From assembly GCA_019058245.1 (NCBI GenBank), contig JAHPZJ010000024.1, positions 30,036-94,035 of the forward strand: 64,000 nucleotides of DNA, read 5' to 3'. A program made the translations under genes and the position numbers. Source of the stretch: Promethearchaeota archaeon (GTDB lineage Archaea > Asgardarchaeota > Lokiarchaeia > Sigyniarchaeales > SOKP01). The notes below the pieces were generated by a model, which was given only the letters and a program-made list of their open reading frames with translations, was not told where the DNA came from and did no database searches. Shown here piece after piece: positions 42,783 to 50,840 of the stretch. The number at the start of each line of letters is the position of its first letter. Positions within the stretch are counted from its first letter, which is position 1.

Positions 42783-43874
42783 CTAATCATCACTACTTGG
42801 AATTTTTGGTAATTGTCTTCGACTATTTGATTTTTTACTTGTGGAATTCTCTAGAATTTCTATTATTTCGGCTTTTCTTGCATTTGCAGGTAATTCTATA
42901 TTCTTTTCCTCAGCATAAGTTTTAAGATTTTTCACAGTCATTGAATTAAAATCAAATGTATCTATAGTAGTATCTGCTTTTTTTACAATAGTTTCTTGCG
43001 AATTGCTTGTTGGATTTTTTATTTTTTCTAATACTTCTACAGCCTCAACAATTCCTTTTTCCTCATCAAAATACACTCTTAACATATGTTTATCTAATTC
43101 AATCATTCCTTTTGGAACATTTTTAACTGGTTCCCACTCAGTTTCTTCGACTTCTTTTCCAAAAACGGTTGCAATTTTGGAAACTGCAGCATAAAGGGTA
43201 TGACCTAAAATTAAGTTTAATCTTTTATATTCATTAGAAACTTCTGTTTTGAGTAATTTTTCTTTAATTATCTTTTCATGTTCTGTTGATAGAGTAGTTG
43301 GCTTAGAAACTTGTGTTGATTTCGTTATTGATGGTTTTTGAGGTTTAATGCTTGGTTTTGGAGTACTTGCTGAAAATGATGATACTACCACTTCATTACT
43401 GGTATCCTGTAATGCTGGTGAAAAGTATTCTTCCTCTGTTTGTGCTTGAGGTGCTTTAGGAGAAACATCTGAAATTGTGGCTTGAGCACCTCTTTCACGT
43501 TCAATATTTCGAACATATCGCATATCTGCTAGTCGTTCAGTTACTTCCATTGATTGTAATTTGAAAGCATTTAAGAATTCTGCAGGCTCATCTCCCGCAT
43601 CTACTGATACAATCTTACAGCGATGGTATCTAGCATCTTTCATCAATTCTTCTTGAAGTGCTTGAGCTACTCTTGAACTAATAAATCGTTTTCGAACAGG
43701 TGATTTTGGACCTTTCCAAATGAAAATTCTTCTTAAATCTTCTCTAATAATTACAAGGACTTGTTCTGGATGTAGATTTTCTTCGAGATGTTCTTCTTCC
43801 ATATCTAATCGCATTTTTTCTCCAGAATCATCCAGTTCATACACTATAAAGGTTTCATATTCACTCATTTTCAT
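42783..43874 (-). CDS. Single gelsolin-domain protein with C-terminal Rho-N/SAP (HeH)-like domain
   Basis: RRIFIWKGPKSPVRKRF...DAGDEPAEFL (gelsolin); FNSMTVKNLKTYAEEKNIELPANARKAEIIEIL (HeH). Confidence 0.85.
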   Translation of the reverse strand: MKMSEYETFIVYELDDSGEKMRLDMEEEHLEENLHPEQVLVIIREDLRRIFIWKGPKSPVRKRFISSRVAQALQEELMKDARYHRCKIVSVDAGDEPAEFLNAFKLQSMEVTERLADMRYVRNIERERGAQATISDVSPKAPQAQTEEEYFSPALQDTSNEVVVSSFSASTPKPSIKPQKPSITKSTQVSKPTTLSTEHEKIIKEKLLKTEVSNEYKRLNLILGHTLYAAVSKIATVFGKEVEETEWEPVKNVPKGMIELDKHMLRVYFDEEKGIVEAVEVLEKIKNPTSNSQETIVKKADTTIDTFDFNSMTVKNLKTYAEEKNIELPANARKAEIIEILENSTSKKSNSRRQLPKIPSSDD

Positions 43875-44069
43875 CCAAGGGGCAAATTAAGTTATGATTT
43901 TTTAAATTTCACTATAAAATCTGAAGTTAATCAAAAAATTATTTGATGTTTCTATTCAAATTTACATATTTTAAAAAAAATATAAATTAAATCATTTTAA
44001 ATTTATTTTTTTAAAAAAACTATAACGATTCTTTTTGAATGAATAATTAATTCGATATAAAAAAAAAAA

Positions 44070-44812
44070 TTAGGAATCATGAAGAACATTATCAATTGAA
44101 AGTACAAATCCTACTAGAATTCTTCTGTCTGTTTCATTATCAAGTATTCTTAAAGCATATGTATCCTTGAAATCCAAAAGGCCTCCAAGAAATAAATCTC
44201 TCCATTTATCCGCTTTTTCAATTTCTGCAACAACATTTCCTGTAGTTTCATCATAGACCTTAAATGAAAATCCCATAAATTTTCCTTGAGCACGGAACCA
44301 TCGATTTCCCTCAGGATCTTCAAGATAAAATACAGGTCTGAAAAAAGATAGAATTTTCTTCTTAATTCGAGCAATTAAATTCCCCTGAGGATCTTTTAGA
44401 TCTTGAGCACCACGAGCAGATATAATTTTAGCATGAATAGTAGCCGATATTGTTCCATCAACTTCTCTTAATTCTACTCTACGTCTAATTGAGAGAATAA
44501 CTCTTTTCATTCGACCAATTTTTTGATTATTTTCATCAAGGATATCACCAGAACCCCAATCCCAATATTTTTAAAGAATTTGAGGTATTCTCAACATTTT
44601 TCTTTAAGGATATAATAGTTCCGGTTAATATCAAATAAACTTCCTGGGCTGTGATATGCTTGTCGGCTTGATGGTCCTGCAGATGGCGTTGTTACTGATG
44701 TAAGTACAGTTTCACTCTGGCTTTCTATATTGGTAATAGGAGAACCACATTTTTCACAAAAATTTTGTGATAAATCTTTAATTTCTTCCCCACAATTCTG
44801 ACAGTAAGGCAT
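44070..44812 (-). CDS. Zinc-ribbon plus LURP-one/scramblase-family protein split by a 29-nt insertion; predicted join(44812..44600,44570..44070), 237 aa
   Basis: Exon 1 ends YYILKE; exon 2 begins KYWDWGSGDILDENNQKIGRMKR and is in frame with ORF 44070-44510; tubby/LURP-like strands and terminal helix ILVGFVLSID. Confidence 0.8.
44571..44599 (-). other. Candidate 29-nt bulge-helix-bulge intron in a protein-coding gene
   Basis: mRNA UU-AAAG-AA^A-AAUGUUGAG-AAUAC-CUCAAAUU-CUUU-AA^A-AA; 4-bp central helix flanked by two 3-nt bulges; canonical cuts restore the frame. Confidence 0.6.
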
Positions 44813-44968
44813 TTATTTCCCTTTTTTATTTTATGATTTTTTTTATGAAATGAATAATTAATTCATCTAATAAATTTTCGGATAGATTTATAATTTTTAT
44901 ATCTTCATAAAAATCTTTTAATTTAATTAACTTTAATAATTAATAAATAAAATAATTCAGAGAATATA

Positions 44969-45748
44969 ATGTCAAACGAGAGTATTCCAAAATTATTGAA
45001 ATTAAAGGATTATATAACTTTAGTAGGAACTACTCTAGGGATTATAGCTTTAATATGTGCCACTATAGGTACTAGAGAATTTCTTTCATTAGGTTTTTTT
45101 CTAATATCAATTACATTAGGAACTGATCTAATAGATGGATATATTGCTCGAAAAACAAATACAAAAAATGAAATGGGGAAAGAATTAGACTCATTAAGTG
45201 ATTCATTGACATTCGGTATCGTACCAGCAGTATTAACCTACCAAACCTTTAAAACAGGAAGCTTTTATGATATAATTCTTATAATAGGAGCAATATGCTT
45301 TGCCTTTGGAGCAATTCTCCGATTAGCGCGATTTAATATCTCAAAAAATCCTGGTTACACAGGAGTCCCAACACCGGTTAGTGCATTAATGCTAATTACC
45401 TTTTTTTATGCAAATTTCTTCTATACACTTGCAATGGGTGATATAAACTATCCGTTTTTAGAGATCTCGTCTTATTCAATTCCATTCTTTTTAATATTAA
45501 TTGGTTGGTTTAATATCACAACTTACATTCATTTTAGAGAAAAAGATAAAACAATATACATAGTATTTATAATTTTTGCCCCTCTATGCCCTATTTTTGG
45601 AGTAATTGGTATAAGTTCCCCAAATCTTATTATTTCCATTTTTGCATCTATTTTCTTTTTAGGAGCTTTTATTTTAGCATTTCTCCTTATAATAAGAGGT
45701 TTTTTATTGTATTTTATTACAACTAGAAAGGAAAAAAAGCTTTCTTAG
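44969..45748 (+). CDS. pssA: CDP-alcohol phosphatidyltransferase, PssA/archaetidylserine synthase-like
   Basis: DLIDGYIAR, GKELDSLSDSLTFG, LRLARFN, GVPTP. Confidence 0.85.
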   Translation: MSNESIPKLLKLKDYITLVGTTLGIIALICATIGTREFLSLGFFLISITLGTDLIDGYIARKTNTKNEMGKELDSLSDSLTFGIVPAVLTYQTFKTGSFYDIILIIGAICFAFGAILRLARFNISKNPGYTGVPTPVSALMLITFFYANFFYTLAMGDINYPFLEISSYSIPFFLILIGWFNITTYIHFREKDKTIYIVFIIFAPLCPIFGVIGISSPNLIISIFASIFFLGAFILAFLLIIRGFLLYFITTRKEKKLS

Positions 45749-47999: not shown

Positions 48000-49328
48000 A
48001 TGAATATTACAGATGAAGATGTATTTTTCTACTTGGATCTTACTAAGGAATTATTAAAAAAGAAGGATATTATCAAAACGATCAAGTTTTATATTGAGGA
48101 AAAAAATAAAGCAAATTTGAAAGGACATTATTCTCTTCTCATTTTCCAAGAAGAAGGAAATCCTATCTTTATAACTGATAAAAAAGATTCAGGAATTATT
48201 ACTAATTCTATTGAAGAAAACTGGAAAACTCGTCCTAAGGAACAAAGCTTTTTTGAAAATGGTTTATTTTATATTTTTTCTTACATTGCAGAAACAGTAA
48301 GAAAAAAATCTAAATTTTACAGAATTATTATTATTACAGATACACCCTCCGATTTATCTGCGGATTATCAAGACGCATTATTTAATCTAGTATCAAAAAT
48401 AAAAAATTTCCCAACTTTTATAGATATTATACGGGTATCTGAGGAAGATCAACGGTTATTTAGTGATGATGTAAAACTAAATATACTTGCAAGTGATACA
48501 AAAGGAGGTATCTTTTATACCAAGAATAAAAAAGAGTTTTCTGACGTTATTAAGAAATTAGTAAAAAGTAAACAGTATGTAACTACTTTTACAAATCGTC
48601 CAGAAATTATTAGAATATCTAAAGAGGATTATGCTTTCTACGATTATCTAGCCAAATCTTTAAAAAAAACAGATGAAATGAATTTAGTGTGTTATTTTTG
48701 CAATGAAGAAGTATGTCCTGTTTGTATGGATATTCATGATATTCCATTAGTCTGTGAAGATTGTAATTCTAGTTTTCATAATTGTTGTATTACAAATTAT
48801 ACCATAAATCATAATATTGGTATTCCTAATATCCTACGTTGTCCATCATGTGATGTTCTGTTAAAAATTGACGAAGATGAGATAATTGAAGTATCAGGTG
48901 AAGTAGAAGTGAGTACTGTAAAAGAATATATGGAAAAAGAAATATTAGCAGATCTGCAAAAAAGAGTAATAAAGGAAGAAATACCAATTCCTAGACCTAT
49001 TTTAGAAAAAAAAATAGATACACCTCCTCAAAAACCCCAAGATGTCTCAGCTGGAGAACAAATCAAAAAAATTAGAATTGGTGGTTTTTTTGGCAAAGTA
49101 TATAAAGTAAAAAAGGATGGTGATAAGATCGTTTATGAAAGGAGTACTCAAACATCCTTTAAAGCTGAAAGTATAAGAGATAAAAAACATTTAATCAATT
49201 CAGAGAAAATTATTCTTCGACAAAAGAATGAATTAACAAAAAAACCAAGTTTCATTATATGTGCTCAATGTGGGAGACAAAATGATTCACATCAAACAAT
49301 GTGTTCAAATTGTGGAAGCAAGTTATAA
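48000..49328 (+). CDS. VWA-like domain, RING/PHD-type zinc finger and C-terminal zinc ribbon
   Basis: FFYLD, IIIITDTP, FIDIIRV, TKGGIFY; CYFC-x4-CPVC...CEDC-x4-H-x2-C...CPSC; CAQC...CSNC. Confidence 0.75.
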   Translation: MNITDEDVFFYLDLTKELLKKKDIIKTIKFYIEEKNKANLKGHYSLLIFQEEGNPIFITDKKDSGIITNSIEENWKTRPKEQSFFENGLFYIFSYIAETVRKKSKFYRIIIITDTPSDLSADYQDALFNLVSKIKNFPTFIDIIRVSEEDQRLFSDDVKLNILASDTKGGIFYTKNKKEFSDVIKKLVKSKQYVTTFTNRPEIIRISKEDYAFYDYLAKSLKKTDEMNLVCYFCNEEVCPVCMDIHDIPLVCEDCNSSFHNCCITNYTINHNIGIPNILRCPSCDVLLKIDEDEIIEVSGEVEVSTVKEYMEKEILADLQKRVIKEEIPIPRPILEKKIDTPPQKPQDVSAGEQIKKIRIGGFFGKVYKVKKDGDKIVYERSTQTSFKAESIRDKKHLINSEKIILRQKNELTKKPSFIICAQCGRQNDSHQTMCSNCGSKL

Positions 49329-49496
49329 TAATAAAAACAAGAATTTGTTTTATAATACTTTTGTATTATTGTCCTTTAATAGTTTTAAATTGAAAGAGAA
49401 TAATGATTATCGAGACAAGGAAGTTTTTTTCAATATCAATAAAAATAAATAAAACGTATAATATTAATTTGTTAAAGCTTTTCGATTGATGCTAAA

Positions 49497-50840
49497 ATGT
49501 TACCTCGAACGAATACAATAAATTCAGAAGAGTTTATTTTTTATTTAGATCTAATTTCAGATTTTATAAAGAAGAAACCATTAATGAAAGCTATAAGTAG
49601 TTTTATCAAAGAAAAGGATAAATTTAATGCCTTCGCTTCTTATGGCGTTGTATTATTTCAAAAAGATGATAATCCTATTAATGTATATGATCTTAAAAAT
49701 TTGGATGCAGTCTTAAAAATTATTGATGAAGCATGGGAAACTAGAGAAGTTGAACACAGTTTCTTAGAAAATGGTTTATACGAAATTCTCGCGTATATCT
49801 TTAGAAAAAGCCGGGAAATAAGAAAAAATTATCGTGTAATTATAATTTCAGATACTCCTAGCCGCCTATCGGATGATTATTATAATGCTCTTTATGATTT
49901 ATTAATTAAGGCAAAAAAATTCTCTGCATTTATTGATATTATTCGAGTTGGGGAAGAGAAATTTTATGATGACGATGTTAAACTGAAAGTTATTTCGAGT
50001 GAAACTCATGGCGGAACATTTTATTGTCCAAATGAAAAACTCCTTCAAAATATTTTAGGATCTTTAATTCAAAATAAGAAAGAGTTTAAAATTATAAAAT
50101 CTGAAGAGACTGATCAGGTTTTAGGTCAAGATAAGATTTTCTATGAAGGATTAGCGGCAGATCTCATTAGTCTATCACCTGAAGATCAAGAATTGTGTAA
50201 CATTTGTGAGCAGGAATTATGTCCTATTTGTGAGGCTCATTCTGATGAAATTCATAAATGTTATAATTGTAATACAAAATTTCATAACTGCTGTGCTGCA
50301 AAATATGCAATTGTTAAAAATATTGGCTTTAAACATATCTTCAGATGTCCACAATGCGAAACGTTATTAAAGCTTGATGAAGAATTTGTTAATATGATTT
50401 ATGAAGAAGATTTAGAAGAAGAACTAGAAGAAGAATTGCCTAAAATAGAATTGGAAAAACCTATTTACGAAAAAGAAACTACTACTGAGTATGAAGAAGA
50501 ACAATATACAGAAGAATCTGAAGTTCAGGAAGAAATAATAGAAGAAGAGTCAGAAATAAGTTTAGAAGAACCAGAACCTTCCACAGTTGATCAGCAAAAA
50601 ACAATAAAAGTTGGTGGTTTTTTTGGAAAAGAAATTACTATTGGAACTAAAAAATCTATTGAAACACCAATTTCAAAAATAACAGAAAATACTGAATTGA
50701 AAGAACAACCTATTTCAATAACATCCTTAAAACCACCCCGAAGAAAGGGAACTAGTTCAATAAAGTTATGCAAAATTTGTGGAGCTACATGTAATAAATC
50801 AGTTAATACTTGTCCAACTTGTGGAGCAAAACTCATTTAA
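49497..50840 (+). CDS. VWA-like domain, RING/PHD-type zinc finger and C-terminal zinc ribbon (tandem paralog)
   Basis: IFYLD, IIISDTP, FIDIIRVG, THGGTFY; CNIC-x4-CPIC...CYNC-x4-H-x2-C...CPQC; acidic linker. Confidence 0.75.
   Translation: MLPRTNTINSEEFIFYLDLISDFIKKKPLMKAISSFIKEKDKFNAFASYGVVLFQKDDNPINVYDLKNLDAVLKIIDEAWETREVEHSFLENGLYEILAYIFRKSREIRKNYRVIIISDTPSRLSDDYYNALYDLLIKAKKFSAFIDIIRVGEEKFYDDDVKLKVISSETHGGTFYCPNEKLLQNILGSLIQNKKEFKIIKSEETDQVLGQDKIFYEGLAADLISLSPEDQELCNICEQELCPICEAHSDEIHKCYNCNTKFHNCCAAKYAIVKNIGFKHIFRCPQCETLLKLDEEFVNMIYEEDLEEELEEELPKIELEKPIYEKETTTEYEEEQYTEESEVQEEIIEEESEISLEEPEPSTVDQQKTIKVGGFFGKEITIGTKKSIETPISKITENTELKEQPISITSLKPPRRKGTSSIKLCKICGATCNKSVNTCPTCGAKLI

What the first reader, a model, noticed from the sequence alone, without database searches (positions are those of the whole stretch)
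44571..44599. Candidate bulge-helix-bulge mRNA intron in an Asgard protein-coding gene
Seen: the zinc-ribbon/LURP-one gene is broken by 29 extra nt that introduce a stop (TGA, 44593-44591) and a frameshift. The mRNA can fold as outer pairs UU/AA, central 4-bp helix AAAG (44605-02)/CUUU (44576-73), 3-nt bulges AAA (44601-599) and AAA (44572-70), and inner stem AAU[G]UUGAG/CUCAAAUU closing an AAUAC loop. Established: archaeal splicing endonuclease cuts BHB motifs after the second nucleotide of each bulge and RtcB ligates; the classic protein-coding case is crenarchaeal cbf5. Applying that rule removes exactly 44599-44571 and gives CUU AAA GAA|AAA UAU UGG (LKE|KYWDWGSGD), an intact 237-aa protein with no other decay. 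Inference: endonuclease-spliced mRNA introns operate in this lineage and may gate expression, loosely paralleling the 26-nt RtcB-ligated XBP1 intron. Caveats: the outer helix is weak (2 bp, then AUCC/GGAU past a bulge) and a continuous UUAAAG/CUUUAA fold competes. The insert is also flanked by a 6-nt direct repeat (AAAAAT), which fits a duplication or mobile-element footprint.
Basis: partly seen in the sequence, partly recalled or inferred. Interest (0 to 1): 0.92.

Follow-up and report, generated by a model that had tools for sequence, protein, structure and literature searches.

The report
Come-and-go tRNA-type intron in Asgard gene
A 29-base insert that breaks a healthy protein gene of an Asgard (Loki-type) archaeon has the RNA shape cut by the tRNA-splicing enzymes, and similar inserts come and go at two neighbouring spots of this gene across one genus, so the messenger RNA is very probably spliced, which the papers I could search document inside a coding sequence for only one archaeal gene.

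Summary
Observation confirmed. Removing 44599-44571 (minus strand) gives a 237-aa zinc-ribbon/LURP-one protein. The sister species (about 94% DNA identity) has exactly that gene without the insert. Among 50 gene copies in the genus, 8 carry inserts at this site and 10 at a second site 12 nt downstream; 32 have none. All 18, plus 3 metagenomic ones, pair 4 of 4 in the central helix and have two 3-nt bulges and a hairpin, with different sequences and compensatory changes. All break the reading frame, yet the joined frame stays under purifying selection. The direct repeat is not general (0-6 nt), and ribosome hopping fits at most 7 of 18. The genome has an (αβ)2 EndA with catalytic triad and broad-specificity lysine, an RtcB, and five more such inserts. 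Carriers are scattered over the gene tree, so gain and loss recur. No RNA was available, so splicing is inferred, not shown; regulation is untested. The BHB fold is 4.6 kcal/mol above the predicted minimum, like a tRNA intron of the same genome. The scan reported this kind of intron before on other Asgard DNA, including this gene family.

The parts
44600..44812 (-). Exon 1 (71 codons): zinc ribbon, Ser/Thr/Pro linker and first beta-strand of the LURP-one barrel; unspliced it ends at a TGA two codons into the insert (73-aa product)
   Evidence: (Pfam Zn_Ribbon_1 E 1e-7)
44571..44599 (-). 29-nt BHB intron (site 1, between Glu71 and Lys72), with in-frame TGA and frameshift
   Evidence: absent exactly in G070 and in DNA contigs of X9 and X10
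44602..44605 (-). Exon strand of the 4-bp central helix (AAAG)
   Evidence: AAAG/CUUU, AAGG/CUUU and AAGG/CCUU in orthologues
44599..44601 (-). 5' bulge (AAA); predicted cut between 44600 and 44599
44577..44598 (-). Inner stem-loop of the intron
   Evidence: -3.6 kcal/mol, z -3.5 against shuffles
44573..44576 (-). Intron strand of the central helix (CUUU)
44570..44572 (-). 3' bulge (AAA); predicted cut between 44571 and 44570
44606..44611 (-). Exon hexamer AUCCUU forming the outer helix with AA (44569-68) and GGAU (44562-59); identical in all 8 site-1 carriers at synonymous positions
44070..44570 (-). Exon 2 (166 codons plus stop): rest of the LURP-one/Tubby-C barrel; public annotation calls only a 146-aa piece from an internal Met
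   Evidence: (Pfam LOR E 8e-10)
44558..44559 (-). Empty second intron site (Asp75|Trp76), occupied by 30-nt BHB inserts in 10 relatives

Best explanation
The insert is a bulge-helix-bulge pre-mRNA intron. The transcript folds so that exon AAAG pairs with intron CUUU between two 3-nt bulges. The cell's (αβ)2 tRNA-splicing endonuclease cuts after the second base of each bulge and RtcB joins the exons, giving the message for a 237-aa zinc-ribbon/LURP-one protein; the 29-nt piece is released, probably circularised. Such introns are facultative passengers: they are gained and lost repeatedly at two sites 12 nt apart within one Promethearchaeota genus, and persist only where exon and intron sequence keep the motif cleavable. 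SHOWN here: sequence, motif, covariation, empty-site alleles, selection on the joined frame, enzymes, scatter on the gene tree. INFERRED: transcription, cleavage, ligation, circularisation, and the route of gain.
For: 21 of 21 orthologous inserts (27-30 nt) pair 4/4 in the central helix with 3-nt bulges, while 7 off-target matches to the same search pattern pair 1/4. Site-1 helix position 3 is A-U x3, G-U x2, G-C x3 and never mismatched; all 40 site-2 pairs hold with four different intron strands. Hairpin z is -1.6 to -18; at most 3 of 2000 shuffles reproduce the motif. All 18 genome inserts break the frame; 15 of 15 in-frame ones contain a stop, about 7.5 expected, though they are not independent. 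pN/pS in carrier pairs is 0.06 upstream, 0.07-0.11 for the 16 codons before the internal Met and 0.06 downstream, like intronless pairs at 0.02-0.07. The exon context ATC CTT AAR GAA is in 8/8 site-1 carriers against 4/32 intronless copies, confined to the four codons that pair. EndA alpha has Tyr-His-Lys and the loop lysine matching K44 of A. pernix; a beta subunit and an intact RtcB are present. Five more such inserts split conserved motifs of ahcY, mevalonate kinase, cdhA (two) and RNase HII in this genome.
Against: No spliced transcript was seen. The BHB is not the predicted minimum-energy fold in 17 of 18 carriers (gap 0-6.7 kcal/mol; 4.6 here), although a 30-nt tRNA D-arm intron in the same genome shows a 4.2 gap. 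The outer helix is weak at site 1 and nearly absent at site 2, so cleavage depends on relaxed-motif recognition. The genomes are related, so counts are not independent. An annotation-free genome scan could not separate true BHB geometry from decoy geometries.
Confidence: 0.93

Rival explanations
1. Translational bypass: the ribosome hops over the hairpin insert (as in T4 gene 60 or mitochondrial byps), and the RNA is never cut.
For: Here an AAA codon sits at both ends of the insert, followed closely by a stop and a hairpin; all inserts carry a stop or frameshift.
Against: Matching take-off and landing codons exist in only 6 of 18 inserts (7 with wobble) and in 1 of 10 at site 2. Hopping does not explain a conserved 4-bp exon-intron helix flanked by exactly 3-nt bulges in 21 of 21.
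Confidence: 0.02
2. Mobile-element footprint or duplication that has made the gene a pseudogene, or split it into a zinc-ribbon peptide plus a barrel restarted at Met92.
For: 6-nt direct repeat and hairpin in this genome; a conserved internal Met exists and public annotation-aa and 146-aa proteins; 32 of 50 copies lack an insert.
Against: The repeat is 0-1 nt in 9 of 10 site-2 inserts and 3-6 nt at site 1. The core is single-copy. No further decay occurs in any carrier. The codons between insert and internal Met are under purifying selection. A restart at Met92 would drop strands 1, 2 and part of 3 of a closed 12-strand barrel.
Confidence: 0.02
3. EndA cuts the motif but ligation is partial or conditional, so the insert acts as a regulated switch (spliced versus cleaved and degraded message), as for XBP1/HAC1.
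For: Every insert carries a premature stop or frameshift; a competing fold is more stable than the BHB here; site-2 introns are more conserved (26-28 of 30 nt in five pairs) than synonymous sites of their hosts (33-50% of codons differ).
Against: 64% of copies in the genus have no intron, and none was seen in about 80 genomes of other genera searched. Two different sites are used, and carriers often have intronless sisters. There is no evidence of a condition-dependent signal. This rival adds to the best explanation and does not exclude it.
Confidence: 0.12
4. Assembly artefact.
For: The genome is a metagenome bin, 76% complete.
Against: Exact spanning contigs in runs X2 and X6; different inserts at the same base in 10 other assemblies.
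Confidence: 0.003

Closest known systems
cbf5 (pseudouridine synthase) pre-mRNA intron of Desulfurococcales and Sulfolobales (Watanabe 2002; Yokobori 2009, PMC2738675)
   Same: Short intron inside a coding sequence, BHB or relaxed BHB at the borders, cuts between the second and third bulge bases, (αβ)2 EndA with the crenarchaeal-type loop, gain and loss among relatives.
   Different: Asgard lineage; host is a LURP-one/Tubby-C protein unrelated to RNA processing; two alternative positions 12 nt apart; presence varies between sister species of one genus; at least six such inserts in one genome; splicing not shown experimentally.
HVO_1309 5' UTR intron of Haloferax volcanii (Schwarz 2020, PMC7714728)
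   Same: BHB intron in an mRNA, cut by the splicing endonuclease.
   Different: 46 nt, untranslated region, does not break a reading frame.
Non-canonical tRNA introns of Asgard archaea (bioRxiv 10.64898/2026.10.13.758758)
   Same: Similar size, BHB motif, repeated independent gains, same EndA type, unknown route of arrival; a 30-nt D-arm example is in this genome.
   Different: Host is a protein-coding gene; by word search that paper does not treat mRNA introns (0 occurrences of 'mRNA').
XBP1/HAC1 unconventional intron (own knowledge; abstracts)
   Same: Small frame-shifting intron; RtcB-family ligase in animals.
   Different: Cut by IRE1 at two stem-loops, not by EndA at a BHB; stress-regulated and conserved. 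No homology is implied.

Membership tests
Archaeal BHB (EndA-spliced) intron | 4-bp central helix between exon and intron strands | tested here: met
   4/4 pairs here and in 20 orthologous inserts, with compensatory changes
Archaeal BHB (EndA-spliced) intron | Two 3-nt bulges on opposite strands, 3' of each helix strand | tested here: met
   5' bulge closed by an inner stem in all 18 genome inserts; 3' bulge closed by at least one outer pair in all 18
Archaeal BHB (EndA-spliced) intron | Flanking helices on both sides (strict hBHBh') | tested here: inconclusive
   Inner helix strong; outer helix 2 bp plus a displaced 4-5 bp at site 1 and 1 bp at site 2, which fits a relaxed motif
Archaeal BHB (EndA-spliced) intron | Cuts after the second bulge base restore the mature sequence | tested here: met
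   Restores the intronless allele in all carriers, including those with no direct repeat, where the register is unique
Archaeal BHB (EndA-spliced) intron | Host encodes EndA with catalytic Tyr-His-Lys and an RNA ligase | tested here: met
   Alpha and beta subunits, loop lysine, RtcB with intact motifs
Archaeal BHB (EndA-spliced) intron | Spliced RNA or circular intron in vivo; cleavage by EndA in vitro | not testable with these tools
   No RNA holder listed
IS/MITE insertion or footprint | Constant-length target-site duplication | tested here: not met
   Repeat length 0-6 nt, mostly 0-1 at site 2
IS/MITE insertion or footprint | Multiple related copies in the genome | tested here: not met
   Single copy at up to 6 mismatches in a 76%-complete genome
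Translational bypass element (gene 60, byps) | Matching take-off and landing codons | tested here: not met
   6-7 of 18 inserts
LURP-one (LOR)/Tubby-C barrel, host protein | Pfam LOR match and 12-strand barrel with C-terminal helix | tested here: met
   Pfam E 8e-10; model with 12 strands, pLDDT 78.5; best structural match 1zxu At5g01750, TM 0.64, then TULP1

The most novel reading that the evidence does not exclude
These are a class of mobile, protein-free mRNA micro-introns that are actively spreading in Lokiarchaeia: they recolonise preferred exon contexts between species by short-tract recombination or reverse splicing, and ride on the tRNA-splicing machinery. That would make dispersed, frequently gained and lost coding introns a feature of the archaea closest to eukaryotes, independent of group II introns and the spliceosome. 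Hints: carriers are rejected as clades (8 changes for 8 carriers, 9 for 10), site-2 introns are far more alike than their hosts, and synonymous differences to the intronless sister spike around the intron (11 of 30 codons; 2 of 107 neighbouring blocks reach that).
Probability: 0.4. Interest if true: 0.92.

Novelty: new variant of a known kind. Interest (0 to 1): 0.78.

Why it matters
The papers I could search name cbf5 as the only confirmed intron inside an archaeal coding sequence (PMC2738675, PMC7714728). Routine mRNA splicing by the tRNA machinery in Asgard archaea would change how their genomes are annotated (this gene is filed as two fragments) and bears on what RNA processing the archaeal ancestor of eukaryotes had. 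This locus is a good test bed: occupied and empty alleles exist in sister species, two sites can be compared, and the motif is short enough for an in vitro cleavage assay. It also gives a handle on the open question of how BHB introns arrive.

Tried and rejected
RNA evidence: no RNA holder listed for this stretch; this says nothing about expression. Annotation-free genome-wide scan for BHB plus frame joining: three rounds, true geometry was not enriched over mirror and wrong-bulge decoys (for example 5 against 0-6) and it missed known cases, so I give no genome-wide count. Long co-conversion tracts shared among carriers: not seen beyond the four codons next to site 1 (a first run timed out). 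Mutual exclusion of the two sites: no genome has both, but only about 1.6 were expected, so this is not significant. Rfam: nothing near a gathering score. Sigma-70 promoter and terminator scan: chance level and not suited to archaea. Sequence search of the host protein against PDB: nothing significant. Literature searches for Asgard or Lokiarchaeia mRNA introns returned no such paper; the library lacks most subscription journals.

Full report
Observation. The minus strand carries two open frames, 44812-44591 (73 aa) and 44510-44070 (146 aa). Removing the 29 nt at 44599-44571 gives one 237-aa frame reading LKE|KYWDWGSGD. A 6-nt direct repeat makes seven registers equivalent. The RNA can form central helix AAAG/CUUU, bulges AAA and AAA, an inner hairpin and a weak outer helix. 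The insert is single-copy in the genome and is spanned without mismatch by contigs of two DNA runs, one of which may be the source sample. Relatives are mostly labelled Promethearchaeota (Lokiarchaeia), including Loki_b32.

Host gene. Exon 1 has a zinc ribbon and exon 2 a LURP-one domain. A model of the intronless sister protein is a 12-strand barrel with a C-terminal helix, closest to At5g01750 and TULP1. The insert lies in the loop between strands 1 and 2, inside an E-K-Y-W motif invariant in 35 aligned copies. The internal Met92 lies in strand 3. The gene is head-to-head with a CDP-alcohol phosphatidyltransferase and upstream of a gelsolin-HeH gene. Its function is not tested; lipid binding is a guess from the fold.

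Relatives. Of 50 copies examined in the genus, 32 are uninterrupted, 8 have an insert at this site (Glu|Lys) and 10 have one 12 nt downstream (Asp|Trp). Three more site-1 inserts came from metagenomes. The closest relative, G070, encodes an uninterrupted 237-aa protein, and DNA contigs of two other runs lack exactly these 29 nt. In about 80 genomes of other genera the open frames were long, and the four short cases checked were not interrupted at these sites.

The motif is what is conserved. Inserts are 27-30 nt and differ in sequence (inner-part identity 0.54 at site 1, 0.68 at site 2, 0.36 between sites). All 21 pair 4 of 4 in the central helix. At site 1 a synonymous exon position varies and its intron partner follows: A-U three times, G-U twice, G-C three times. 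At site 2 the exon strand UGGG meets CCCA, CUCA, CUCG or CCUG. Seven off-target hits of the same search pattern pair only 1 of 4. Shuffled inserts reproduce the motif in 0-3 of 2000 trials. All 8 site-1 carriers have ATC CTT AAR GAA against 4 of 32 intronless copies. Their excess similarity is confined to those four codons (0.13 against 0.55 synonymous differences), the bases that form the helices. Kinship limits any formal P value.

The joined frame is used. Every insert breaks the frame, and all 15 in-frame ones hold a stop. Yet pN/pS in carrier pairs is about 0.06 on both sides and 0.07-0.11 in the 16 codons between the inserts and the internal Met, which could only be translated after removal. 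This argues against a pseudogene or a restart. Direct repeats are 0-6 nt and matching hop codons occur in 6-7 of 18, which argues against a transposon footprint or ribosome bypass.

Machinery. The genome encodes two EndA paralogues. One has the Tyr-His-Lys triad and aligns best with the A. pernix alpha subunit, including the loop lysine K44 linked to broad specificity; the other lacks the His, as a beta subunit would. RtcB is intact. Following leads from earlier notes, I checked inserts of 31-34 nt in ahcY, mevalonate kinase and cdhA (two), and found a 30-nt one in RNase HII; each has a 3/4 or 4/4 helix, a hairpin and a stop, and canonical cuts restore the conserved motif. I did not compare these five with orthologues.

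Caveats. The BHB fold is 4.6 kcal/mol above the predicted minimum; a 30-nt tRNA intron of this genome shows 4.2 by the same measure, one control only. No RNA could be examined. My annotation-free genome scan did not beat decoys.

History. On a gene tree carriers are scattered, several with an intronless sister (G000/G070 and G031/G027 at bootstrap 100). Parsimony needs 8 changes for 8 site-1 carriers and 9 for 10 site-2 carriers, and both groups are rejected as clades (p-AU about 1e-9). This is a single-gene tree, and it does not tell gains from losses. Absence outside the genus suggests both sites arose within it (inference). Five site-2 pairs share 26-28 of 30 intron bases while their hosts differ at 33-50% of synonymous codons. 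G000 and G070 differ at 11 of 30 synonymous codons around the intron against 2-4 elsewhere in the gene; 2 of 107 neighbouring blocks reach that. These hint at exchange by recombination but are post hoc.

Comparison and verdict. It works like, and meets every testable defining feature of, the cbf5-type BHB pre-mRNA intron, with a relaxed outer helix. It differs in lineage, host gene, number per genome and turnover between sister species. I found no paper on Asgard mRNA introns; a 2026 preprint describes repeated gains of tRNA introns in Asgard archaea. This scan has reported the same kind of intron in at least 38 genomes, once in this gene family, and some of those notes mention spliced RNA for other genes; I did not check those RNA claims and do not count them as support. 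Verdict: real, very probably spliced (0.93), a new variant of a known kind; regulation unsupported; interest 0.78.

Noticed in passing
G000 C10:121094 (-), C15:8315 (+), C28:107060 and 106949 (-), C25:92012 (+); outside the window: Five more BHB-shaped inserts (32, 31, 32, 34, 30 nt) splitting conserved motifs of ahcY, mevalonate kinase, cdhA (two) and RNase HII; canonical cuts restore the frames. The RNase HII one was not among the same-genome notes shown to me.
   Followed up: partly
L045, L050, L052, L055, L020, L025, L026, L027, L030, L072: Second intron site 12 nt downstream in 10 relatives; all 30 nt, with a stop at the second intron codon that is TAA, TAG or TGA in different species.
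   Followed up: yes
window 44500-44700 against L035: Local spike of differences to the intronless sister (27 in 200 nt; 179 in about 3200 overall), a possible recombination tract around the intron.
   Followed up: partly
L095, L096: Paralogues in other genera appear to lack the zinc ribbon and start just before the LFD motif, which marks the natural start of the LURP-one domain upstream of the intron.
   Followed up: no
window 42783-45748: Gene order gelsolin-HeH, zinc-ribbon/LURP-one, divergent CDP-alcohol phosphatidyltransferase; the same neighbours flank the gene in G070.
   Followed up: no
G000 C29:20061-20199 (-) and other tRNA loci: tRNA genes with non-canonical introns, including a 30-nt D-arm BHB intron; ARAGORN finds only 19 tRNAs and misassigns several, suggesting hidden introns.
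   Followed up: partly
window 48000-50840: Two tandem paralogues with cysteine-rich fingers and terminal zinc ribbons; no NCBIfam match for the first.
   Followed up: no
record titles: Several genomes of this genus carry NCBI labels Odinarchaeota, Hermodarchaeota, Hodarchaeota or Thorarchaeota although their gene is 80-99% identical to this one; probably submitter mislabels.
   Followed up: no
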